64,000 nucleotides of DNA from Escherichia coli O127:H6 str. E2348/69 (GCF_000026545.1 NC_011601.1), one strand, 5' to 3'. Positions 51,805 through 62,645 are shown, counted from the stretch's first letter. The notes: generated by a model from the sequence alone, not told the origin. Made by a program: numbers and translations.

Positions 51805-52341
51805 ATGCGTCGCGCTAACGATCCGCAACGGCGAGAAAAAATTATCCAGGCCACGCTGGAGGCGGTGAAACTTTACGGAATACATGCTGTTACACACCGC
51901 AAAATTGCTACCCTTGCCGGGGTGCCGTTGGGATCGATGACCTACTATTTTTCAGGCATTGATGAGTTGTTGCTGGAGGCGTTCAGCCGTTTTACTGAGA
52001 TCATGTCCCGGCAATATCAGGCATTTTTTAGCGATGTTAGTGATGCTCCAGGCGCATGCCAGGCTATCACCGATATGATCTACAGCTCACAGGTCGCAAC
52101 GCCGGATAATATGGAGCTGATGTACCAGCTCTACGCGCTGGCTAGCCGAAAACCGCTATTAAAAACGGTAATGCAAAACTGGATGCAGCGCAGTCAACAA
52201 ACGCTCGAACAATGGTTTGAACCCGGAACCGCCCGCGCGCTTGATGCGTTTATTGAGGGGATGACGCTGCATTTTGTCACCGACCGTAAGCCGCTATCAC
52301 GCGAGGAGATTTTGAGGATGGTTGAGAGGATTGCTGGGTAG
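51805..52341 (+). CDS. rcdA: TetR-family transcriptional regulator RcdA
   Basis: Start trimmed to [10 protein letters not shown]... (178 aa); N-terminal TetR HTH. Confidence 0.9.
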
Positions 52342-52445
52342 TAGATAAATTTCAGGCAACAAAAAACCCATTTATGTAAACGGGTTAATGAAAACAATAA
52401 CTTAGAGTAAAAACAATAAGTTGGGTTGGTGGTCAGTGGTGGTTA

Positions 52446-53498
52446 TTACGGGGTAATGCCAACCGCTGCCGCCACTTTGTCGCCACTTGGCAGCGTTGCC
52501 AGAGGATTGAAACGGAGCGCCGTTTCCAGATGATCCGGTGCCAGATGTGCGTAACGCATAGTCATTTTTATATCGTGGTGTCCGAGAATTTTTTGTAAAG
52601 CCAGAATGTTTCCACCCGACATCATGAAGTGCGCCGCAAACGTATGGCGCAGAACGTGTGTGGGTTGACCGCGAGGGAGCACGATAGACGTTTTTTCCAT
52701 CACGGATAAAAATTGAAAATAGCAGTCTGTGAAGAAATTGAACCCATCAAGCGCCATGATCTCTTCGTAAAGCTCTTTACTGATAGGGATGCTTCTGTTT
52801 TTCTTCCCCTTCGCTCTTACAAAGGTAATTCGGTATTTGGTCACCTGTGAGCGGGTAAGATTTACGTCTTCTCGCCAGCGTGCGCCTGTGCTTAAGCATA
52901 TCTTAACTACCAGTGCCAGAATTGGGTCCTGACGTTTGCAATCAGCTAGTAATTCAACAATCTGCTCATGGGTAAGCCATGCCATCTCTTTTTCTGCGAT
53001 GGTGAATTTTCGCATGTTCTCCAGTGGGTTCGGATACGACCATTCGCCCAGGCGGGATAGTTCGCTAAAAACACTACTTAGATAGCTTTGCTCCAGGTTA
53101 ATGGTGACCGGGCTTGCTCCTTTCTTCCATTTCTCACTGAAGTAGATCTCACCTGTCAGGCGTTTATCTCGATAGTGGGCAAACATTTTAGAGGTTAGAT
53201 CAGTTGCAAGGGGATTGCCCAGAGCGTCAACCATCAGCAGCAATTTGTCATAGACATGCTGCCCAGCAGTCAGAGATTTACCATGTAGTTTGAACCATAG
53301 CTCAACCACGTCTTTCAGTGTTCGACGATCCACTGATTCACCCAGCCAGGGCTTTGCTTCGGTTTCTTCCATCGTGTGACGCTCAAAAGCCAGTGCTTCG
53401 CCTTTGGTGGCGAATTGTTTACGCACACGACGCCCACTACGTCCGGCGGGGTAACATTCGCAAAGCCATTTTCCTGTGGTGAGTTTTCGTACTGCCAT
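52446..53498 (-). CDS. int: phage integrase (tyrosine recombinase, P2/186 type)
   Basis: 350 aa; N-terminus MAVRKLTTGKWLCECYPAGRSGRRVRKQFATKGEALAFE and catalytic-domain motifs (LSTGARW, LRHTFAAHFMMSGGNILALQKILGH, MRYAHLAP) match recalled 186 Int. Confidence 0.9.
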   Translation of the reverse strand: MAVRKLTTGKWLCECYPAGRSGRRVRKQFATKGEALAFERHTMEETEAKPWLGESVDRRTLKDVVELWFKLHGKSLTAGQHVYDKLLLMVDALGNPLATDLTSKMFAHYRDKRLTGEIYFSEKWKKGASPVTINLEQSYLSSVFSELSRLGEWSYPNPLENMRKFTIAEKEMAWLTHEQIVELLADCKRQDPILALVVKICLSTGARWREDVNLTRSQVTKYRITFVRAKGKKNRSIPISKELYEEIMALDGFNFFTDCYFQFLSVMEKTSIVLPRGQPTHVLRHTFAAHFMMSGGNILALQKILGHHDIKMTMRYAHLAPDHLETALRFNPLATLPSGDKVAAAVGITP

Positions 53499-53584
53499 AA
53501 TAAAGCCCTCATATCAGAGGGCTAAATTTAACTGTATGTTTGACCAGTGGTCAATGTATGGTTTAGTTTATTCAAACAATGCTT

Positions 53585-55102
53585 TTAATCAAATGATGTG
53601 GCCAGTTCAATTAATTCAATGTAATTATGTAAGGCATAAAAAGATGTATTCAGACCATTCTCTATAAGGGCTCCTTGCAAATACTTTATAGCTGTATCAC
53701 CATCAATAGGGCCTTGTTGAGATATAATCATTAGTGAATTTTGCCCATTGTTTTTTATACTTGATTTAAGCATGTTTATATTATTAATAAAATACAATGC
53801 AACATCTAAGTAATTTATTAATGTTAAATTTATTTTGGGCTCAATCTGTGAGATGAATAATCTACTGCTCGCCGTTCTATAGATATAATTGACACCTATT
53901 CTTTGCTGATTTGTATCAAGATTTAATTCAAGGATGGCTTGAGAAACACCTTTTAAATTGGAGCTTTGCTTTATCGAATCAGTGAAACGTTGTGCTGCAT
54001 TTCTTCGACCAATTAGTCCATCTATAATTTGACGTTCCTTATCATATATAATCATTAGCGAAATTATAAAAATATAATCTACTTTCTTTTTGACTAAATC
54101 AGATTTAAGAATGTCTATTAACCTTTCAGTATTTCGGATTGAGTCTCTTAGATTTAACCCAAATGCTTCAAATACGTTGGAAATATTTATTGAAAAGTCT
54201 TCTAATGTTGCTGTTAGTGGGTGTGTTTTTGATGTGATATTTTCAAAATCGGTACCAATATAATCACCAACAACACCATTAATTAAATCTTTAAGCTCAG
54301 GTTGTTTTAAAGTAAATCTTCTATGAAAAAAACGGCCTAAATAGTCATTTGCGGAAAAATCATTACCGTAAACATTCTTGATTGAATGTTGTAATTGATC
54401 TGTGTCAGTAGCAATAATAAAGACAAAATTTTTAATATCGAATATATGTTTAACAATCTCTAAAAGAGAAATTGCATAATCTGGCCTGCATCTGTCTAAT
54501 TCATCTATAAAGATAAATATAGGACATGAAAAACTATTTTCATATGCCAACCTAGACCATAACGTTAGTTCTTTTTTTAATACCTTAATGCTCTTCAGTT
54601 TTTCCTGGTGTTCCTTCAGCATTATTAATGAGGCTTCTTTGGCTATATCACCTACGTTATCTACTCCTGCATAAGTCTTGATTAGGCCAGATATGATTTC
54701 AGGTAGAACACCTTTTGTAAAGCGTCCGATAGCATGGCCGCTTTGTATCAATCGAGCATCAAGTTTTCCTGCATATGTTTGCAATTGTTGTGACAAAGAA
54801 GAAAAAAGGGTTAAAAATGCATCATCAGAAAAGTCTTGCTTCCAGGCATCAATGTAAACGCATGGGTGTGCATCTTTTATTGAGTTATAAAATCTCTTTA
54901 TGAAAAAACTTTTACCAGCTCCCCATTCTGCATTAAGGTTGATTACCGTGTTGTTCTTTTGCCCCTTTTCCTTAAGATAAAAATATAGATATTCTGCATA
55001 GTGTCTCCGATTAAGTTTGTCTTTGGAAAGAATTTCCTCTTCGTCGTCTAATATAAAGGTAGTTTCTTCATCCCAGTTCCAATTACAATCACCACATTTC
55101 AC
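53585..55102 (-). CDS. KAP-family P-loop NTPase (prophage cargo; candidate anti-phage protein)
   Basis: 505 aa; GTG start with GGAGA RBS; Walker A AEWGAGKS (res 58-65) and Walker B IFIFIDELDRC typical of KAP NTPases; long Asn/Ile/Lys-rich C-terminal region; AT-rich. Confidence 0.7.
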   Translation of the reverse strand: MKCGDCNWNWDEETTFILDDEEEILSKDKLNRRHYAEYLYFYLKEKGQKNNTVINLNAEWGAGKSFFIKRFYNSIKDAHPCVYIDAWKQDFSDDAFLTLFSSLSQQLQTYAGKLDARLIQSGHAIGRFTKGVLPEIISGLIKTYAGVDNVGDIAKEASLIMLKEHQEKLKSIKVLKKELTLWSRLAYENSFSCPIFIFIDELDRCRPDYAISLLEIVKHIFDIKNFVFIIATDTDQLQHSIKNVYGNDFSANDYLGRFFHRRFTLKQPELKDLINGVVGDYIGTDFENITSKTHPLTATLEDFSINISNVFEAFGLNLRDSIRNTERLIDILKSDLVKKKVDYIFIISLMIIYDKERQIIDGLIGRRNAAQRFTDSIKQSSNLKGVSQAILELNLDTNQQRIGVNYIYRTASSRLFISQIEPKINLTLINYLDVALYFINNINMLKSSIKNNGQNSLMIISQQGPIDGDTAIKYLQGALIENGLNTSFYALHNYIELIELATSFD

Positions 55103-55127
55103 TATGAAGTCTCCATGAAAAATTTAC

Positions 55128-56051
55128 TTAATGTAAACAACTTATAATAACTTTTGCAATAAACTCAATGTCTGTAAGCGAACATTCAAAAGAGTGATTT
55201 TGGGATGAAATATAAACTCGTCCTTTAGGTAGTCGAGTTATCATTCTAAATGAATTCTCTCCATCAATATTTACTAGCCACTTACCATCATGTACATCTT
55301 TAAAACCCATTTCACATATTAATTCAGAGTCTTCGGTAGATACTACGAATGCATTTTTTAAATTGGAAGGTAGAAAGCATGGGTCAAATAAATATGAGCC
55401 ATCATTTATTAACTTGCCATTGATTAATACTTTTTTCACTAATGTTAAAGTATCTTTATTTTTTGCGTTTTTCATTTCTCCTGTACCAAATGAAATCCAT
55501 TCAATAGAATGGCCCGTTTCTATTGCACACTGCAAAACCCAGTCTGCAGGAAAAATGTCACGCATGTATCGTGTGGCTAATGTGCTTTTTGAAATACCTA
55601 GGTGATCAGCTAATGCTTGGCGCGTTTTGTAACCGTAAGCCTCGACAATTCGTTCTATTGTTGCCTTACCCCCTCGGTTAAAATTCATGAGTTTTTCATT
55701 ATCGAACTTTATAGTGGGAATGTATACTTCATTGCAAAGGCCATTAACGGCATGTTTTTCAGAATATTGCTCTGATGAAGGAGCAGTATCTGAACCAAGA
55801 ACTAACCATTCAATTGATGCTCCTGTTTCTATGGAACATATAACAACCCAATCTGCAGGAAAGGTATTACGTGCATATCTGTTGGCCATAGTACTTTGGG
55901 AAATACCTAGATGATTACATAATGCCTGTCGTGACTTGAAGCCATAGGCTAGGAGTATACGCTCAATAACTTTTTGCCCTCCACGATTCTGCATAACTAT
56001 TGCTTTCAGATCGTTTTTGATATGGCTAAATTTTAATTTTTGAGTTGACAT
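55128..56051 (-). CDS. CI-like repressor paralog with tandemly duplicated N-terminal DNA-binding domain
   Basis: 307 aa; residues ~20-85 and ~120-190 are two copies of the domain (IERxxxAYGxKxRQALxxHLGISxSTxAxRYxRxxFPAxWVxxCxxETGxSxxWL) found once in the adjacent CI; C-terminal domain is paralogous to the CI C-terminus. Start could alternatively be the Met at residue 20. Confidence 0.75.
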   Translation of the reverse strand: MSTQKLKFSHIKNDLKAIVMQNRGGQKVIERILLAYGFKSRQALCNHLGISQSTMANRYARNTFPADWVVICSIETGASIEWLVLGSDTAPSSEQYSEKHAVNGLCNEVYIPTIKFDNEKLMNFNRGGKATIERIVEAYGYKTRQALADHLGISKSTLATRYMRDIFPADWVLQCAIETGHSIEWISFGTGEMKNAKNKDTLTLVKKVLINGKLINDGSYLFDPCFLPSNLKNAFVVSTEDSELICEMGFKDVHDGKWLVNIDGENSFRMITRLPKGRVYISSQNHSFECSLTDIEFIAKVIISCLH

Positions 56052-56101
56052 ATTTTTTACACCACAACAAATGCTTTACCAAGCATAAAAACATTCCTAT
56101 A

Positions 56102-56677
56102 TTACTCAAAGTACTTAACTGTTATGCTTATAATTTTTCCAATAATTTCGATTTCTTCTTTTTTACATTCGAAAGCCCTATTTCCACCTTCAACTAAGAT
56201 TCTTCCACCAGGTAAACGAGTGATATCGCGGATTGTTACTTCGGCATCAATACTTATTACCCATTTGCCGTCACGAATATCGTTAAACTCTTTATCGCAA
56301 ATAAAAACGGAATTGTTATCGGTGATTACAAACGGATTTTTGAGCGTAGATGGTAGAAATTCTTTATCGAAAATATAAAAACCATCTTCCTGCAAGGTTC
56401 CATCAGATAATACATATTTAACGACTTCCATAGTATTTGTATTACCTGAAGTTTGCTTTGAACCATGTCCGGTCGTGAGCCAGTTAAGCGAGGCGCCCGT
56501 TTCAAGTGCGCACTGGATTACCCATTCAGCAGGGAATGAGTCACGCATATAGCGTGTGGCGAGAGTACTTTTAGAGATTCCTAAGTGATCGCACAACGCC
56601 TGTCGAGTCTTGAAGCCATATGCTTCTACCATGCGCTCTATAGCGCCTCGTCCGCCTTTCTCCAAACTCATGGTCAC
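56102..56677 (-). CDS. cI: prophage immunity repressor CI (186 type)
   Basis: 191 aa; divergent from the apl/cII operon; N-terminal domain resembles recalled 186 CI (...AYGF...CALETGA..W..TG); start may be the ATG at 56671 instead. Confidence 0.75.
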   Translation of the reverse strand: MTMSLEKGGRGAIERMVEAYGFKTRQALCDHLGISKSTLATRYMRDSFPAEWVIQCALETGASLNWLTTGHGSKQTSGNTNTMEVVKYVLSDGTLQEDGFYIFDKEFLPSTLKNPFVITDNNSVFICDKEFNDIRDGKWVISIDAEVTIRDITRLPGGRILVEGGNRAFECKKEEIEIIGKIISITVKYFE

Positions 56678-56796
56678 TCCAAGTGAACTTTTGTCTTGAC
56701 GATTTCATTATGCGATCGCATGTTTATGGTGTTCACAAAATGCAAACGATCCGTATTCGTCCTGATTAATCAACATTAAACGAGGAATGTTGCATC
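56678..56796. promoter_or_regulatory. prophage immunity switch region (early lytic promoter and candidate CI operators)
   Basis: Divergent intergenic region with TTGACG -35-like hexamer (56696-56701), perfect 12-bp palindrome ATGCGATCGCAT (56710-56721), and flanking inverted repeat GTGAAC...GTTCAC (56683-56688 / 56731-56736). Confidence 0.45.
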
Positions 56797-57018
56797 ATGA
56801 AACCTAACATTTCAATCACTCTTACCACGCCTCATGTGACTATTGAACGTTATAGCGAGCTGACAGGGCTATCCATCGATACTATCAATGACATGTTGGC
56901 TGATGGACGTCTTATCCGTCACCGTCTGCGGAAAGATAAAAAACGCGAAAAAGTGATGATCAACATAGCAGCCATGACCGTTGATGCGCTTTCAGAATGC
57001 AATCTAAACCTTAATTAG
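56797..57018 (+). CDS. Apl/Cox-like HTH excisionase-regulator
   Basis: 73 aa; first gene of the rightward operon with GAGGAA RBS; position matches 186 apl / P2 cox. Confidence 0.55.
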
Positions 57019-57050
57019 TTCGATTCTGAAATACATCAGAGGCATTGACC

Positions 57051-57560
57051 ATGTTTGATTACCAAGTTTCCAAACACCCGCATTTTGATGAAGCCTGTAG
57101 AGCTTTTGCACTTCGTCACAATATGGCGAAGCTGGCAGAACGTGCAGGAATGAATGTCCAGACTCTGCGAAACAAACTCAACCCAGATCAACCGCATCAG
57201 CTCAATGCGCCAGAAATCTGGCTGCTTACCGATCTGACTGAAGATTCAACGCTGGTAGATGGCTTTCTGGCACAGATTCACTGCCTGCCATGTGTACCGA
57301 TTAATGAGGTGGCAAAAGAGAAACTGCCGCATTACGTCATGAGTGCAACTGCAGAGATAGGGCGTGTCGCGGCAGGTGCGGTTTCTGGCGATGTAAAAAC
57401 CAGTGCAGGCCGTCGTGATGCGATCAGCAGCATTAACTCTGTTACACGACTGATGGCGCTGGCTGCTGTTTCATTGCAGGCCCGTTTACAGGCTAATCCT
57501 GCGATGGCGAGTGCAGTTGATACCGTGACTGGCCTCGGTGCTTCATTCGGTTTGCTGTGA
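57051..57560 (+). CDS. cII: CII-like lysogeny establishment regulator (186 type)
   Basis: Start trimmed to [45 protein letters not shown]...; closely matches recalled 186 CII over its full length. Confidence 0.85.
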
Positions 57561-57567
57561 GGTGCTT

Positions 57568-57768
57568 ATGCTGACGAAAGAACCATCATTTGCATCGCTG
57601 CTGGTAAAACAAAGTCCGGCAATGCACTACGGTCACGGCTGGATCATGGGTGAGGATGGTAAACGCTGGCATCCGTGCCGTTCACAAGATGAATTGCTGG
57701 CAGAACTATCAACGAAAAAACGGGGGAACCAATGGCTATTGAAGGCGCTGCGGCGACTGTTCCATTAA
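57568..57768 (+). CDS. hypothetical phage early protein
   Basis: 66 aa from MLTKEPSF...; sits where 186 carries fil; no recognisable motif. Confidence 0.4.
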   Translation: MLTKEPSFASLLVKQSPAMHYGHGWIMGEDGKRWHPCRSQDELLAELSTKKRGNQWLLKALRRLFH

Positions 57769-58073
57769 GCCCCGGTGAACGCCTGAATGGACTTAATCAT
57801 ATTGCGGAATTAAGAGCGAAAGTTTTTGGCCTGAATATTGAGTCAGAGCTTGAGCGGTTTATTAAAGATATGCGTGATCCACGGGATATCAATAATGAAC
57901 AAAATAAACGGGCACTGGCTGCCATATTCTTTATGGCAAAAATTCCAGCTGAACGTCATAGCATCAGCATTAATGAGCTGACCACTGACGAAAAGCGGGA
58001 GCTGATTAAAGCAATGAATCATTTTCGTGCAGTGGTGAGCTTATTTCCCAGACGGCTAACCATGCCGAATTAA
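57732..58073 (+). CDS. hypothetical phage early protein
   Basis: 113 aa ORF in the early operon; start uncertain (overlaps previous gene by 37 nt). Confidence 0.4.
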   Translation: MAIEGAAATVPLSPGERLNGLNHIAELRAKVFGLNIESELERFIKDMRDPRDINNEQNKRALAAIFFMAKIPAERHSISINELTTDEKRELIKAMNHFRAVVSLFPRRLTMPN

Positions 58074-58140
58074 CCAACTAATGAAATTCATGGCGTAAAC
58101 CCGCCAGGCATCCCTTTATCTAAATTCAGGAGAATTGATT

Positions 58141-58374
58141 ATGCGTAATATTGAAACCCTCACGACTAAAACCGGACCGGATGATGCAGGGCTTAATATT
58201 TTACTGACAGAGGCTCGTCTGGAAGAACGCCGGGCAAGGGCTGAAGCAATGGCAGCTCGCCTTGATAGCCTGGCGTGTCATATCACATCCCGCCAGCTAA
58301 ACCACGTCGAAGCGGCAGAACTGCTGCGTGTGACTGCTGAAGCAATCCAGAACGAAGCGCAGGAGATCCACTGA
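58141..58374 (+). CDS. hypothetical phage early protein
   Basis: 77 aa from MRNIETLTTK...; CAGGAGAA RBS 6 nt upstream; stop overlaps next start (TGATG). Confidence 0.5.
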   Translation: MRNIETLTTKTGPDDAGLNILLTEARLEERRARAEAMAARLDSLACHITSRQLNHVEAAELLRVTAEAIQNEAQEIH

Positions 58375-58601
58375 TGGCTGATGCAATGGATCTCGTACAG
58401 CAGCGCGTTGAAGAAGAACGCCAGCGTCATATCCGTGCTGCCCGCGCCAAAACGCCGGGCGTATCCCGCGTGCTTTGCATTGAGTGTGAAGCACCAATTC
58501 CGCCAGCACGACGTCGCGCCATTCCGGGTGTGCAGCTTTGCATTACCTGTCAGGAAATCGCAGAGCTGAAAGGCAAACATTACAACGGAGGTGCTGTATG
58601 A
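58374..58601 (+). CDS. phage TraR/DksA-family C4 zinc-finger protein
   Basis: 75 aa; CIECEAPIPPARRRAIPGVQLCITCQ is paralogous to chromosomal YbiI (CEECGAPIPQARREAIPGVRLCIHCQ). Confidence 0.75.
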   Translation: MADAMDLVQQRVEEERQRHIRAARAKTPGVSRVLCIECEAPIPPARRRAIPGVQLCITCQEIAELKGKHYNGGAV

Positions 58602-59455
58602 GCACCATCCTGAAATGGGCGGGTAATAAAACCGCCATTATGCCAGAACTGAAAAAATACCTTCCTGCTGGCCCGCGACTGGTTGAACCTTTCGCGGGTT
58701 CTTGTGCTGTGATGATAGAGACGGATTACCCCAGCTATCTTGTTGCGGATATTAATCCTGATTTAATCAACCTCTATAAAAAGGTTGCTGCTGATTGCGA
58801 GGCGTTTATATCTCGTGCCAGAGCTTTATTTGAGGAAGCAAACAGGGAGGTGGCTTATTACAACATAAGGCAGGAGTTTAATTACTCCACTGAAATTACT
58901 GATTTCATGAAAGCGGTATATTTCCTGTATCTCAATCGTCATGGTTACCGTGGGTTATGTCGCTATAACAAGAGCGGGCATTTCAACATTCCCTACGGGA
59001 ATTATAAAAATCCGTATTTCCCTGAAAAAGAAATTCGCAAATTTGCAGAAAAAGCCCAGCGAGCAACGTTTATCTGCGCCAGCTTTGATGAAACGCTGGC
59101 GATGTTGAAGGCGGGGGATGTGGTGTATTGCGATCCGCCTTATGACGGTACGTTTTCCGGCTATCACACTGATGGCTTCACTGAGGATGACCAGTATCAC
59201 CTGGCATCCGTTCTTGAACATCGATCATCTGAAGGTCATCCGGTCATTGTTTCTAACAGTGACACATCCCTGATTCGTTCGCTGTATCGCAATTTCACTC
59301 ACCACTACATCAAGGCAAAACGCAGCATCGGCGTGTCGGCTGGCGAGAGTAAATCTGCAACAGAAATCATTGCTGTTTCCGGGGCGCGCTGCTGGGTGGG
59401 ATTTGATCCTTCGCGTGGCGTGGATAGTTCTGCTGTGTACGAGGTGCGTGTATGA
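58598..59455 (+). CDS. dam: phage DNA adenine methyltransferase (Dam-like)
   Basis: 285 aa from [12 protein letters not shown]... with GGAGG RBS; FAGSCAV SAM-binding motif and DPPY catalytic motif. Confidence 0.85.
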
Positions 59456-61866
59456 GTCATGATGATATGAGCAACTCTAGCGGCTTTAACGAGGCCGCTG
59501 CAGCATTTTCATGGAACGGCCCGAAAAAGGCCATTAACCCTTATCTGGATCCGGCGGAAGTTGCGCCGGAGTCTGCACTTTCAAACATGATCACTCTGTA
59601 CGCTGCCGATAACGAGCAGGAACAGCTGCGCCGCGATGCACTGAGTGAGCAGGTCTGGGAGCGTTATTTCTTTAATGAATCCCGTGATCCTGTCCAGCGC
59701 GAAATGGAGCAGGATAATCTCATTAGTCGGGCAAAGCTGGCGCATGATCAGCAGCGTTTTAACCCGGACATGGTCATTCTGGCGGACGTCAGCGCCCAGC
59801 CCACCCACATCAGCAAGCCGCTGATGCAACGTATCGAATACTTCAGCAGCCTGGGCAGGCCAAAGGCTTATTCCCGCTATTTGCGTGAGACGATTAAGTC
59901 ATGTCTGGAGCGACTGGAGTATGTACGCGACAGTCAGCTATCCGCTTCTTTCCGTTTTATGGCAAGCCATCAAGGGCTTGAGGGCCTGCTGATCCTGCCT
60001 GAAATGAGTCAGGATCAGGTAAAACGCCTGTCCACCTTGGTAGCAGCGCATATGAGCATGTGTCTTGAGGCCGCTTGTGGTGATTTGTATGCCTCCGATG
60101 ACGTTAAGCCAGAAGAAATCCGCAAGACATGGGAAAAGGTGGCAGCGGAAACCCTGCGTCTGGATGTTATCCCGCCTGCGTTTGAGAAACTCCGTCGGAA
60201 AAGAAACCGCCGCAAACCCGTGCCCTATGAACTCATACCGGGTTCGCTGGCACGTATGCTTTGCGCCGACTGGTGGTATCGAAAATTGTGGAAGATACGT
60301 TGCGAATGGCGGGAAGAGCAGTTGCGTGCTGTCTGCCTGGTCAGCAAAAAAGCATCTCCCTATGTCAGCTATGAAGCAGTGACGCATAAACGTGAGCAGC
60401 GCCGCAAGTCGCTGGAGTTTTTCCGTTCTCATGAACTGGTGAACGAAGACGGCGACACGCTGGATATGGAAGACGTGGTAAACGCCAGCAGCAGCAACCC
60501 GGCGCACCGCCGCAATGAGATGATGGCCTGTGTTAAAGGTCTGGAGCTTATCGCGGAAATGCGTGGTGACTGCGCCGTTTTCTACACCATTACCTGTCCG
60601 TCACGTTTCCATTCTACGCTCAATAACGGCAGACCAAACCCAACCTGGACAAATGCGACGGTAAGACAAAGCAGCGATTATCTGGTCGGCATGTTTGCTG
60701 CATTTCGTAAGGCTATGCACAAAGCCGGGTTGCGCTGGTATGGCGTGCGGGTGGCTGAGCCGCACCATGACGGTACTGTGCACTGGCATCTCATGTGTTT
60801 CATGCGCAAAAAAGACCGCCGCGCCATTACTGCATTGTTGCGTAAGTTTGCCATCCGTGAAGACCGCGAGGAACTGGGCAATAACACGGGTCCACGCTTT
60901 AAGTCTGAGCTGATAAACCCGCGCAAAGGAACGCCGACAAGCTACATCGCGAAATACATCAGTAAGAACATTGACGGACGTGGTCTGGCTGGCGAGATCA
61001 GCAAGGAAACGGGTAAATCCCTGCGTGATAACGCCGAATACGTTAATGCCTGGGCGTCTCTGCATCGTGTTCAGCAGTTCCGCTTCTTTGGTATTCCGGG
61101 GCGTCAGGCGTACCGTGAACTTCGCTTGCTGGCTGGTCAGGCGGCAAGGCAACAGGGTGACAAAAAAGCAGGTGCGCCGGTACTGGATGACCCGCGCCTT
61201 GATGCCATCCTGGCTGCCGCTGATGCTGGCTGTTTTGCCACCTACATCATGAAGCAGGGCGGCGTACTGGTTCCCCGCAAATATCACCTTATCAGAACAG
61301 CTTATGAAATTAACGAAGAGCCGACCGCTTATGGCGATCACGGTATTCGTATTTATGGCATCTGGTCACCCATTGTACAGGGCAAGATCTGCACTCATGC
61401 AATGAAATGGAAAATGGTTCGTAAGGTCGTTGACGTTCAGGAGGCGGCAGCCGACCAGGGCGCTTGCGCCCCTTGGACTCGTGGCAATAACTGTCCCCTT
61501 GCTGAAAATTTGAACCGACAGGAGAAAGATAAATCAGCTGATGGGGACCCCAGAACGGACATTACCCGCATGGATGACAAGGAGTTACACGATTACCTGC
61601 ACAGTATGAACAAAAAGGAGCGCCGGGAACTGGCTGCAAGGTTACGTCTGGTGAAACCGAAACGGCGTAGAGACTACAAACAGCGAATTACAGACCATCA
61701 ACGACAGCAGCTCGTCTATGAACTGAAATCCAGAGGATTTGATGGCAGCGAGAAAGAGGTCGATTTACTCCTTCGCGGCGGCAGTATTCCGTCAGGAGCT
61801 GGCCTGCGTATCTTCTATCGGAACCAGCGTTTGCAGGAAGATGATAAGTGGCGGAACCTGTATTAA
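59452..61866 (+). CDS. A: phage replication initiation protein A (HuH rolling-circle endonuclease)
   Basis: 804 aa; HuH motif (VHWHLMCF) followed later by tyrosine-containing region ([10 protein letters not shown]); positional equivalent of P2/186 gene A. Confidence 0.8.
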
Positions 61867-61959
61867 TTACGCTGGTTAACAATTCGTGCTCTTAATAATA
61901 CCAGGCATATCAGGCTGATAAGCGTAAAAAAAACGTTTTACATCAGTAAGATTATTATA

Positions 61960-61979
61960 TACTGTAAATATAAACAGTG
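61960..61979 (+). promoter_or_regulatory. LexA (SOS) box
   Basis: TACTGTAAATATAAACAGTG fits CTGT-N8-ACAG, 40 bp upstream of the 62021 ORF. Confidence 0.75.
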
Positions 61980-62020
61980 GTTATACATACAGCATTGTGT
62001 GTGGTGTCATAGGAGGAAAG

Positions 62021-62209
62021 ATGCAGGACTATTTTTTGGAGTCTTTGAAGCTCCAGCGCATTGATTTTTTTCTTAAGCTTGTAGCGGCTAGTGAGTGTAG
62101 TGATGAAGAGAAGGGGCTGGCTCTGCAGTGGGTTTCTGAATTGACTGATGAACTTATGGCAAAAATCAGAAGCCACGAATACAACCGCTCAATGGATGTC
62201 ATCAGCTGA
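62021..62209 (+). CDS. SOS-controlled small protein (positional equivalent of the 186 Tum antirepressor; function unverified)
   Basis: 62 aa from MQDYFLESLK... with AGGAGG RBS; directly downstream of the LexA box. Confidence 0.5.
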   Translation: MQDYFLESLKLQRIDFFLKLVAASECSDEEKGLALQWVSELTDELMAKIRSHEYNRSMDVIS

Positions 62210-62219
62210 GGTGACTTTT

Positions 62220-62453
62220 ATGCGCATTGAAATAATGATCGATAAAGAGCAGAAGATTAGCCAGTCTACCCTGGACGCCCTTGAATCCGAGCTTTACCGC
62301 AATCTGCGCCCCCTGTATCCCAAAACGGTAATTCGCATTCGCAAAGGTAGCTCTAACGGTGTGGAACTAACCGGACTGCAACTGGATGAAGAAAGAAAAC
62401 AAGTGATGAAAATTATGCAGAAGGTGTGGGAGGACGACAGCTGGCTGCATTAA
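62220..62453 (+). CDS. DinI-family protein
   Basis: 77 aa MRIEIMIDKEQ...IMQKVWEDDSWLH resembles DinI; GAGGTG RBS. Confidence 0.75.
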   Translation: MRIEIMIDKEQKISQSTLDALESELYRNLRPLYPKTVIRIRKGSSNGVELTGLQLDEERKQVMKIMQKVWEDDSWLH

Positions 62454-62645
62454 GAAACGTTGCCCCCAGGAGGATTCATTCTGATGGGGGCTAGTTTGGG
62501 CAATGAGTGAAATAAGGCGTAAGGTGGGCGGTTATTTTGATAAGTGATCGTCCGCTTTGTGTCAGAAGCAGAAGTGGGAGTGTCTGAGACTCTCTAAAAG
62601 TTGATGATTCACTTACAAAACCATTTTCCTGATGAATGCTTACAC

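What the first reader, a model, noticed from the sequence alone, without database searches (positions are those of the whole stretch)
61960..62453. SOS-inducible module: LexA box - small ORF - DinI-like gene
The LexA box lies 40 bp upstream of a 62-aa ORF and a DinI-family gene, mirroring the 186 induction circuit in which a LexA-controlled antirepressor inactivates CI. The small ORF has no obvious similarity to Tum as I recall it, so the antirepressor may be a novel variant, possibly matched to the unusual double-repressor arrangement.
Basis: partly seen in the sequence, partly recalled or inferred. Interest (0 to 1): 0.45.

Follow-up and report, generated by a model that had tools for sequence, protein, structure and literature searches.

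The report
Fels-2-type split tum SOS operon
This is the well-known DNA-damage switch of a 186/Fels-2-like prophage in E. coli E2348/69, in which LexA holds off a small antirepressor gene (tumA) and a DinI-like gene (tumB); it is real, but ordinary and already described.

Summary
A near-consensus LexA box (TACTGTAAATATAAACAGTG, 61960-61979) lies 41 nt upstream of a 62-aa ORF (62021-62209), which is followed by a 77-aa DinI-family gene (62220-62453).

The novelty claim fails. The module is 96% identical in DNA to Fels-2 STM2728/STM2726.1 and occurs in 1124 of 5426 complete E. coli genomes. It matches the split tumA/tumB form of the phage 186 tum operon, already described for Fels-2 and PsP3.

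BLASTP finds no similarity between the 62-aa protein and 186 Tum, but profiles do (my HMM E 5e-6; PHROG cross-hits E 2e-5 to 1e-8), collinear with Tum residues 6-43. The promoter geometry matches 186 p95, with the -10 hexamer TACTGT forming the left arm of the operator. All 16 related phage loci I fetched carry a TACTGT-N8-ACAGT box at this position. dN/dS of about 0.04-0.24 shows the small ORF is translated. The Fels-2 ortholog, with an identical box, is induced 5-15 fold by a mutagen.

The small protein is not specially matched to the two repressors. TumA proteins 85-98% identical to this one occur in phages with a single CI whose C-terminal domain is only 24-43% identical.

Verdict: already known, low interest.

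The parts
61937..61942 (+). Putative -35 hexamer TTTACA of the SOS promoter (equivalent to 186 p95)
   Evidence: Read from the sequence. It lies 17 nt upstream of TACTGT. 186 p95 is annotated as -35 TTCACA, an 18-nt spacer, then -10 TACTGT. The consensus promoter scan did not call it because the -10 matches only 3 of 6 positions.
61960..61965 (+). Putative -10 hexamer TACTGT, which is also the left arm of the LexA operator
   Evidence: Same arrangement as the annotated 186 p95 -10, which is the first 6 nt of the LexA site. Inferred by analogy; no transcript mapping was available here.
61960..61979 (.). LexA operator (SOS box) TACTGTAAATATAAACAGTG
   Evidence: Only CTGT-N8-ACAG match in the window. 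Identical box in Fels-2, 813R9 and Kp4846-2, and an equivalent box in all 16 related loci. The Fels-2 operon is induced by a mutagen (PMC2225428).
62011..62016 (+). Shine-Dalgarno sequence AGGAGG of tumA
   Evidence: Read from the sequence, 4 nt before the ATG at 62021.
62021..62209 (+). tumA-type gene: 62-aa predicted antirepressor, homolog of the N-terminal half of 186 Tum
   Evidence: RefSeq WP_001154431.1, annotated 'hypothetical protein'. phrog_698 E 6e-38, with cross-hits to the Tum N-terminal PHROGs 8554 and 1993. A family HMM hits 186 Tum residues 6-43 at E 5e-6. dN/dS is 0.04-0.09 in the informative pairs. Predicted as a two-helix hairpin, pLDDT 87.
62198..62215 (+). Small hairpin spanning the tumA stop codon and the tumB Shine-Dalgarno (GAGGTGA, 62208-62214); possible translational coupling
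   Evidence: Free energy -12 kcal/mol, but z-score only -1.2. Conserved only among the closest relatives. Weak evidence.
62220..62453 (+). tumB-type gene: 77-aa DinI-family protein, homolog of the C-terminal half of 186 Tum
   Evidence: Pfam PF06183 E 8e-23. 41% identical to 186 Tum residues 71-145. 78% identical to PsP3 TumB. Matches the solved E. coli DinI structure 1GHH at E 3e-6.
62462..62491 (+). Stem-loop just after tumB (GCCCCCA...TGGGGGC); possible weak or partial terminator marking the end of the conserved module
   Evidence: Fold. Relatives have a stronger hairpin at the same place with different stem sequences. There is no U tract. Homology to Fels-2 stops here.
56102..56677 (-). 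186-type CI repressor (191 aa), the presumed target of TumA
   Evidence: Pfam Phage_CI_repr plus Phage_CI_C. 33% identical to 186 CI and 39% to Fels-2 CI. It lies divergent from the apl/cox-like gene.
55128..56051 (-). Second CI-family gene (307 aa, two N-terminal HTH domains plus one C-terminal domain); a possible second TumA target
   Evidence: Pfam finds two Phage_CI_repr domains and one Phage_CI_C. Its N-terminal domains are 62% and 70% identical to the CI191 N-terminal domain. Any sensitivity to TumA is only inferred.

Best explanation
Window 61937-62491 is the SOS operon of a Fels-2-like (Peduoviridae) prophage inserted next to rcdA in E. coli O127:H6 E2348/69. It is the split tumA/tumB version of the phage 186 p95-tum operon.

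Proposed mechanism:
1. In the lysogen, LexA binds the operator TACTGTAAATATAAACAGTG. Its left arm is the -10 hexamer of the promoter, so transcription is blocked.
2. DNA damage produces RecA filaments, LexA cleaves itself, and the promoter fires.
3. TumA, a 62-aa helical hairpin, binds the 186-type CI repressor. That repressor has no self-cleavage mechanism. TumA binding prevents operator binding, so the early lytic promoter is derepressed and the prophage is induced.
4. TumB (77 aa, DinI family) is made from the same transcript. It most likely binds RecA filaments and tunes the strength or duration of the SOS signal.

Shown here: the sequence elements, the homology of both proteins to the two halves of Tum, conservation of the box and gene order across the phage family, and purifying selection.

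Shown by others on orthologs: DNA-damage induction of the Fels-2 operon, antirepressor activity of 186 Tum, and assignment of induction to the upstream gene in PsP3.

Inferred for this prophage: LexA control, the TumA-CI interaction, and the role of TumB.
For: - The module is 96% identical in DNA to Fels-2 STM2728/STM2726.1, and the LexA box is identical.
- PMC3121763 states that Fels-2 and PSP3 have tum split in two by a stop codon. [quoted passage not shown]
- The PsP3 record annotates tumA as 'similar to 5' end 186 tum; UV induction of prophage' and tumB as 'similar to dinI and 3' end of 186 tum'.
- TumB is 41% identical to 186 Tum residues 71-145 (E 3e-24) and matches Pfam DinI at E 8e-23.
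- TumA links to the Tum N-terminal half by profiles. 186 Tum residues 7-44 hit the window protein's PHROG 698 at E 2.4e-5. The window protein hits PHROG 8554 (E 1e-8) and PHROG 1993 (E 0.002), which 186 Tum also hits. My HMM of 92 distinct family members hits 186 Tum residues 6-43 without gaps at E 5e-6 and a Yersinia phage 'tum protein' at E 1e-7. Columns R13, A22, C26, A34 and E40 are conserved.
- Promoter geometry equals 186 p95.
- A box of the form TACTGT-N8-ACAGT sits between gene A and tum in 16 of 16 loci, in at least 9 classified genera.
- dN/dS is 0.04-0.09 for tumA in the informative comparisons.
- In Fels-2, STM2727 was induced 5.5-, 11.1- and 14.8-fold by the mutagen MX, and STM2726-STM2727-STM2728 behaved as an operon (PMC2225428).
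- The adjacent CI has the 186-type architecture PF07022 plus PF16452.
Against: - BLASTP finds no pairwise similarity between TumA and 186 Tum or PsP3 TumA. The PsP3 TumA profile link is weak (E 0.004).
- The -10 hexamer matches the consensus at only 3 of 6 positions, and the generic promoter scan called nothing.
- There is no convincing intrinsic terminator.
- TumA is 97% identical to the Fels-2 protein, but the CI here is only 39% identical to Fels-2 CI. Cognate pairing in this prophage is therefore assumed, not shown.
- The key primary paper (Bunny et al. 2002) could not be read here. Its content is taken from PMC3121763.
- No experiment on this E. coli prophage was found.
Confidence: 0.87

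Rival explanations
1. One reading: the 62-aa protein is a novel antirepressor unrelated to Tum, evolved to fit the two-repressor arrangement of this prophage.
For: BLASTP finds no alignment to 186 Tum or PsP3 TumA. Pfam and NCBIfam have no family for it. RefSeq calls it a hypothetical protein. Two CI-family genes do lie in tandem.
Against: Reciprocal profile links to the Tum N-terminal half are collinear and gap-free. The protein is 97% identical to Fels-2 STM2728 and 98% to the 813R9 protein, both from phages with a single CI. The module is present in 21% of complete E. coli genomes.
Confidence: 0.04
2. The module is SOS-regulated but does not induce this prophage. After recombination, TumA may no longer match the resident CI. 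The operon would then act only as an SOS-modulating accessory through the DinI-like TumB, or as a trans-acting antirepressor for other prophages.
For: TumA is nearly invariant while CI varies: the C-terminal domain is 24-43% identical and the N-terminal domain 62-77% identical among phages sharing this TumA type. Trans-acting antirepressors are documented for the Gifsy and Fels-1 prophages (PMC3121763).
Against: The N-terminal domains of CI191, CI307 and the CIs of the other phages with Fels-2-type TumA are all of one class and clearly closer to each other than to 186 or PsP3 (42-46%). This fits a conserved TumA contact surface. Strong purifying selection on tumA in every lineage argues for a retained function.
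Confidence: 0.08
3. The LexA-like palindrome is a chance match and the two genes are expressed constitutively or from read-through of the early operon.
For: The core pattern alone is expected 0.41 times per window, and 32 of 100 shuffles have at least one match. The generic scan called no promoter.
Against: The box is conserved in position and in both arms in 16 of 16 related phages, while the 8 central bases vary. The ortholog with an identical box is damage-induced in Salmonella. 186 p95 has the same arrangement and is the established SOS promoter (PMC7708051).
Confidence: 0.01

Closest known systems
Salmonella phage Fels-2 STM2728 / STM2727 (STM2726.1 in the phage record), the split tum operon
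   Same: 96% DNA identity over the promoter, box and both genes, with an identical LexA box. TumA is 97% identical and TumB 100% identical. Same position after gene A.
   Different: The partner CI is only 39% identical. Fels-2 has one CI and this prophage has two CI-family genes. The cargo after tumB differs: an orf97-like STM2726 in Fels-2, against a 111-aa ORF, cos and ShosTA here.
Coliphage 186 SOS operon (p95-tum-orf97)
   Same: The LexA box doubles as the -10 hexamer. It lies downstream of gene A. It has an N-terminal antirepressor part and a C-terminal DinI-like part. Even in 186 the DinI-like part is also made separately from an internal GTG start.
   Different: In 186 the two parts are fused in one 146-aa protein. 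The N-terminal part is similar only at profile level. Here there is no orf97 and the leader is 41 nt rather than 18 nt.
Phage PsP3 tumA / tumB
   Same: Split architecture, with tumA annotated as responsible for UV induction. TumB is 78% identical.
   Different: PsP3 TumA has a different specificity type, with no BLASTP match and a profile E of 0.004. The PsP3 CI is a 286-aa tandem-HTH form.
Gifsy-1/2/3 dinI-gfoA/gftA-irsA operons and the N15 AntC antirepressor
   Same: A LexA-controlled small antirepressor is co-transcribed with a DinI homolog, and the repressor is inactivated by binding rather than cleavage (PMC3121763).
   Different: The gene order is reversed, with dinI first. The phages are lambdoid or N15-like with unrelated repressors. 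Sequence relation to TumA was not tested here. Gifsy-1 DinI is 33% identical to TumB.
E. coli DinI (PDB 1GHH)
   Same: Same Pfam family and full-length alignment.
   Different: It falls below the NCBIfam equivalog cut-off for host DinI (42.7 against 111 bits). It is a phage paralog whose RecA-binding behaviour is untested.

Membership tests
186-type SOS (tum) operon of Peduoviridae, split tumA/tumB form | Located directly downstream of replication gene A, transcribed in the same direction | tested here: met
   Gene A is at 59452-61866, and the module starts 71 nt later. The layout is the same in all 16 loci.
186-type SOS (tum) operon of Peduoviridae, split tumA/tumB form | LexA operator overlapping the promoter -10 hexamer | tested here: met
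   TACTGTAAATATAAACAGTG matches the consensus at 17 of 20 positions. TTTACA, 17 nt, then TACTGT here, against TTCACA, 18 nt, then TACTGT in 186 p95. This is sequence evidence only.
186-type SOS (tum) operon of Peduoviridae, split tumA/tumB form | First product homologous to the N-terminal (antirepressor) half of Tum | tested here: met
   Met at profile level: PHROG cross-hits at E 2.4e-5, 1e-8 and 0.002, and the family HMM against 186 Tum residues 6-43 at E 5e-6. Not met by pairwise BLASTP.
186-type SOS (tum) operon of Peduoviridae, split tumA/tumB form | Second product, or C-terminal half, belongs to the DinI family | tested here: met
   PF06183 E 8e-23. 41% identical to Tum residues 71-145.
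186-type SOS (tum) operon of Peduoviridae, split tumA/tumB form | Partner repressor is a 186-type CI (Phage_CI_repr plus Phage_CI_C) rather than a lambda-type self-cleaving repressor | tested here: met
   CI191 matches PF07022 at E 5e-33 and PF16452 at E 1e-26. Peptidase_S24 scores only E 0.009.
186-type SOS (tum) operon of Peduoviridae, split tumA/tumB form | Transcription is induced by DNA damage in a LexA-dependent way | not testable with these tools
   Indirect only. Fels-2 STM2727, which has an identical box, was induced 5.5- to 14.8-fold by MX (PMC2225428).
186-type SOS (tum) operon of Peduoviridae, split tumA/tumB form | TumA binds CI and blocks its DNA binding; required for prophage induction | not testable with these tools
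   Known for 186 Tum (Shearwin et al. 1998, cited in PMC3121763 and PMC7708051) and stated for PSP3. Not tested for this protein.
DinI family (PF06183) | Full-length match to the DinI profile | tested here: met
   Model positions 1-63 of 63, E 8e-23. Aligns to 1GHH over residues 1-75.
DinI family (PF06183) | Equivalog of the host dinI gene (NCBIfam NF007893 cut-off) | tested here: not met
   42.7 bits against a cut-off of 111. It is a phage DinI-like paralog, not host DinI.
DinI family (PF06183) | Binds RecA filaments and modulates SOS | not testable with these tools
   No experiment is available for TumB-type proteins in the papers I could read.

The most novel reading that the evidence does not exclude
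The nearly invariant Fels-2-type TumA may recognise the conserved N-terminal HTH domain shared by many heteroimmune CI repressors. It would then act as a broad, trans-acting antirepressor. In this prophage it would neutralise both the 191-aa CI and the tandem-HTH 307-aa CI. In polylysogens it would cross-induce other Fels-2-like prophages, much as the Gifsy antirepressors do.
Probability: 0.25. Interest if true: 0.4.

Novelty: already known. Interest (0 to 1): 0.12.

Why it matters
It matters little as a discovery. The circuit (LexA, then the Tum antirepressor, then CI) has been known since 1989-1998, and the split form since 2002.

The practical value is in annotation. The tumA-type gene is labelled 'hypothetical protein' in RefSeq, and sometimes 'levan regulatory protein', in over a thousand complete E. 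coli genomes. Pfam and NCBIfam have no model for it. Recognising it would flag these P2-like prophages as SOS-inducible rather than P2-type non-inducible.

The contrast between a nearly constant TumA and very variable CI C-terminal domains is a modest lead on where the antirepressor binds.

Tried and rejected
- Pairwise BLASTP of the 62-aa protein against 186 Tum and PsP3 TumA gave no alignment. Profiles were needed.
- Pfam and NCBIfam had no family for TumA, and no solved structure matched by sequence.
- Foldseek of the AlphaFold model against the PDB gave only generic helical hairpins, with no hit at E <= 0.001. Nothing was drawn from it beyond 'two-helix hairpin'.
- The generic promoter scan found no promoter, and the only terminator-like site lies inside the operon at the tumA/tumB junction. 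The hairpins folded there and after tumB are not better than shuffles (z about -1.2 and -1.3), so I do not claim a terminator or coupling element.
- Rfam found no RNA family in 52000-64000.
- Bunny et al. 2002 could not be opened by DOI or PMC id. Its content is cited second-hand.
- Literature searches for 'TumA/TumB' and for the E2348/69 prophage returned noise.
- I did not compute a LexA heterology index because I do not hold the published matrix.
- I considered that the two ORFs might be a frameshifted pseudogene of a fused tum and rejected it. The split form with its own Shine-Dalgarno and ATG is conserved, and both ORFs are under purifying selection in many lineages.

Full report
**Where the window comes from.** The 561 bases around the finding are 100% identical to E. 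coli O127:H6 E2348/69. Window position n corresponds to NZ_LT827011.1 position 800000+n. From about 52354 to the end, the window holds the left arm of a P2/186-like prophage (family Peduoviridae) inserted beside rcdA. The gene order is:
- integrase, 52446-53498 (-)
- KAP-family NTPase, 53585-55102 (-)
- 307-aa CI-family protein, 55128-56051 (-)
- 191-aa CI, 56102-56677 (-)
- then, on the + strand: an apl/cox-like gene, cII, fil, four small genes, a dam methylase and replication gene A (59452-61866)
- the finding follows directly after gene A.

**Check of the observation.**
- The core CTGT-N8-ACAG occurs once in the window, at 61962-61977. The full 20-mer TACTGTAAATATAAACAGTG (61960-61979) matches the E. 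coli LexA consensus TACTGTATATATATACAGTA, which I give from general knowledge, at 17 of 20 positions.
- On its own the core is not statistically remarkable, since 32 of 100 shuffles contain one. The context makes it convincing, as described below.
- The 62-aa ORF starts at ATG 62021, preceded by AGGAGG at 62011-62016, and ends at 62209.
- The DinI-like ORF runs from 62220 to 62453. Its GAGGTGA Shine-Dalgarno overlaps the tumA stop codon.

**What the module is.**
- The 701 bases around the module are 96% identical to Salmonella phage Fels-2. They are 96-98% identical to many E. coli, Klebsiella and Salmonella Peduoviridae.
- In Fels-2 the two genes are STM2728 (hypothetical) and STM2726.1 (DinI family, 'similar to TumB of PsP3').
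- Lemire et al. 2011 (PMC3121763) state that 186 Tum (146 aa) resembles a fusion of an antirepressor with DinI. [quoted passage not shown] - The PsP3 GenBank record names the genes. tumA is described as 'similar to 5' end 186 tum; UV induction of prophage', and tumB as 'similar to dinI and 3' end of 186 tum'.
- The same DNA module is found in 1124 of 5426 complete E. coli genomes. There it is always annotated 'hypothetical protein | DinI-like family protein'.

**Is the small ORF related to Tum?**
- Profiles do connect them. The window protein belongs to phrog_698 (E 6e-38). It also hits phrog_8554 (E 1e-8) and phrog_1993 (E 0.002).
- The N-terminal 60 residues of 186 Tum hit phrog_1993 (E 1e-22), phrog_8554 (E 1e-11) and phrog_698 (E 2.4e-5, residues 7-44 on profile positions 7-44).
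- I built an HMM from 92 distinct members of the window protein's family, taken. In single-target searches it finds 186 Tum residues 6-43 without gaps (E 5e-6). It also finds a Yersinia phage protein annotated 'tum protein' (E 1e-7), the ESSI-2 group proteins (E 1e-19 to 1e-20) and, weakly, PsP3 TumA (E 0.004).
- The multiple alignment shows a shared pattern: R13, A22, C26, A34 and E40 are conserved.
- AlphaFold predicts a two-helix hairpin (helices 2-23 and 28-61, pLDDT 87). Foldseek found only generic hairpins.
- The small ORF is therefore a divergent member of the Tum N-terminal domain family, not a new kind of antirepressor.

**The DinI-like ORF.**
- It is 41% identical to 186 Tum residues 71-145 (E 3e-24) and 78% identical to PsP3 TumB.
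- It matches Pfam DinI over the whole model (E 8e-23) and aligns end to end with the solved E. coli DinI structure 1GHH.
- It falls below the NCBIfam equivalog cut-off for host DinI, so it is a phage paralog.
- The 186 record annotates an internal GTG start that yields just this DinI-like part ('truncated Tum, modulates SOS induction'). The fused and split forms therefore deliver equivalent products.

**Promoter and operator.**
- In 186 the annotated p95 promoter has -35 TTCACA, an 18-nt spacer and -10 TACTGT. The -10 hexamer is the first six bases of the LexA site.
- The window has TTTACA (61937-61942), a 17-nt spacer and TACTGT (61960-61965), again the first six bases of the box.
- LexA binding would therefore occlude the -10 region.
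- The generic promoter scan missed it because TACTGT matches TATAAT at only 3 of 6 positions.

**Comparative test.**
- I fetched 16 tum regions from Fels-2, 186, PsP3, EtG, SEN1, BIS20, SopEPhi, ESSI-2, and Yersinia and Klebsiella phages, covering at least nine classified Peduoviridae genera.
- Every one has TACTGT-N8-ACAGT(A/G) between gene A and the first tum codon. The eight central bases vary.
- Three architectures exist. Tum is fused in 186, EtG, MHG75, Kp4882-2 and BIS20. It is split into tumA plus tumB in the PsP3, SEN1 and RCIP0057 group and in the Fels-2, SopEPhi and window group. TumA occurs without a DinI part in ESSI-2, ESSI2_ev015 and YenM06.16-2.

**Is the small ORF translated?**
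- Between the window and SopEPhi, tumA has 20.5 synonymous and 9.5 non-synonymous differences (dS 1.05, dN 0.066, dN/dS 0.06).
- The other informative pairs give 0.04-0.09. The window-813R9 pair gives 0.24 but rests on one synonymous and one non-synonymous difference.
- tumB behaves the same way, at 0.03-0.09.

**Experimental evidence on the ortholog.**
- In Salmonella TA100, which is Fels-2 positive, the mutagen MX induced STM2727 5.5-, 11.1- and 14.8-fold (p = 0.00003).
- That study lists STM2727 among LexA-regulon genes, and STM2726-STM2727-STM2728 scored as a co-regulated operon (PMC2225428).
- The Fels-2 box is identical to the one in the window.
- For 186, induction through LexA-controlled p95-tum and sequestration of CI by Tum is established and in current experimental use (PMC7708051).

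**Is TumA matched to the two repressors?**
- CI191 has the 186-type architecture (PF07022 plus PF16452). CI307 has two PF07022 domains and one PF16452 domain.
- Phages whose TumA is 85-98% identical to the window's carry quite different CIs. Fels-2 CI is 39% identical to CI191, 813R9 CI 58%, and Kp4872-2 51%.
- Split by domain, the N-terminal HTH domains of these CIs are 62-77% identical to that of CI191. The C-terminal domains are 24-43% identical. For 186 and PsP3, which have other TumA types, the N-terminal domains are 42-46% identical.
- Fels-2 and 813R9 have a single CI.
- Long tandem-HTH CIs are not unique to this window. PsP3 has one of 286 aa, and Kp4872-2/4LV2017 has one of 313 aa that is 61% identical to CI307.
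- TumA is therefore not a special adaptation to this arrangement.
- The pattern fits TumA contacting the conserved N-terminal domain, but does not prove it. That would make both resident repressors, and the CIs of related prophages, potential targets. I report this as the most novel reading still open.

**End of the operon.**
- Homology to Fels-2 stops at the tumB stop codon.
- A hairpin at 62462-62491 lies where relatives have a stronger hairpin with other stem sequences. There is no U tract, and the fold is not better than shuffles.
- The next gene (62646-62981) is on the opposite strand, so the transcription unit most likely ends after tumB.
- The orf97 gene that follows tum in 186 is absent.

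**Verdict.** The finding is a textbook element of 186/Fels-2-like prophages, nearly identical to a described case and present in a fifth of complete E. coli genomes. It is already known and of low interest. The one useful by-product is that the tumA-type gene is systematically unannotated.

Noticed in passing
window 55128-56677 (- strand): Two 186-type CI genes lie in tandem in the lysogenic operon. One is a 191-aa CI next to the switch. The other is a 307-aa protein with two Phage_CI_repr HTH domains and one Phage_CI_C domain. Tandem-HTH CIs of similar length are the sole CI of PsP3 (286 aa) and Kp4872-2/4LV2017 (313 aa, 61% identical). This prophage therefore seems to carry immunity repressors of two lineages.
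   Followed up: partly
window 53585-55102 (- strand): A 505-aa KAP-family P-loop NTPase sits between the CI genes and the integrase. It matches the PADLOC candidate defence family PDC-S20 (E 5e-78) and, more weakly, PifA and QatA. It is probably an anti-phage cargo gene expressed from the lysogenic operon.
   Followed up: partly
window 63235-63391 (core GGCGTGGCGGGG at 63361-63372): A conserved non-coding block is shared with Fels-2, 813R9 and Kp4846-2 (88-90% identical). A core is also shared with RCIP0057, YenM06.16-2 and the extreme right end of the linear PsP3 genome, which aligns to window 63322-63360. This is most likely the cos site, so cargo genes sit on both sides of cos.
   Followed up: partly
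window 63510-64000, continuing to 65049 in NZ_LT827011.1 (L017 12011-13550): A 191-aa phosphoribosyltransferase ORF (PADLOC ShosT, E 4e-14) overlaps by 11 bases a 324-aa DprA-like gene (ShosA, E 3e-70). Together they form a ShosTA-type defence/toxin-antitoxin pair between cos and the portal gene. The ShosT ORF has no CDS in the RefSeq feature table for this record.
   Followed up: partly
window 62646-62981 (- strand): A 111-aa very acidic ORF lies between tumB and cos, convergent with the SOS operon. RefSeq calls it a hypothetical protein and it has no PADLOC match. Its function is unknown.
   Followed up: no
window 62462-62491; L003, L011, L012, L016, L004 just after tumB: A hairpin lies immediately 3' of the tumB stop at the same position in many relatives. 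The stem sequences differ and there is no U tract. It marks the point where conserved sequence gives way to variable cargo. It could be a partial terminator like 186 t95a or a recombination boundary.
   Followed up: partly
loci L002, L004-L016 (tum regions of 186, PsP3, EtG, ESSI-2, YenM06.16-2 and others): The Tum module comes in three architectures across Peduoviridae: fused Tum, split TumA plus TumB, and TumA alone with no DinI part. TumB can be 78% identical between phages whose TumA proteins are not alignable by BLAST (window against PsP3). The antirepressor half therefore diverges or is exchanged independently of the DinI half.
   Followed up: partly
window 62021-62209 and its database relatives: The TumA-type protein family has 484 database clusters with E <= 0.01, across Escherichia, Salmonella, Klebsiella, Enterobacter, Pectobacterium, Lonsdalea and others. 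It is labelled 'hypothetical protein' or, wrongly, 'levan regulatory protein'. Pfam and NCBIfam have no model for it.
   Followed up: partly
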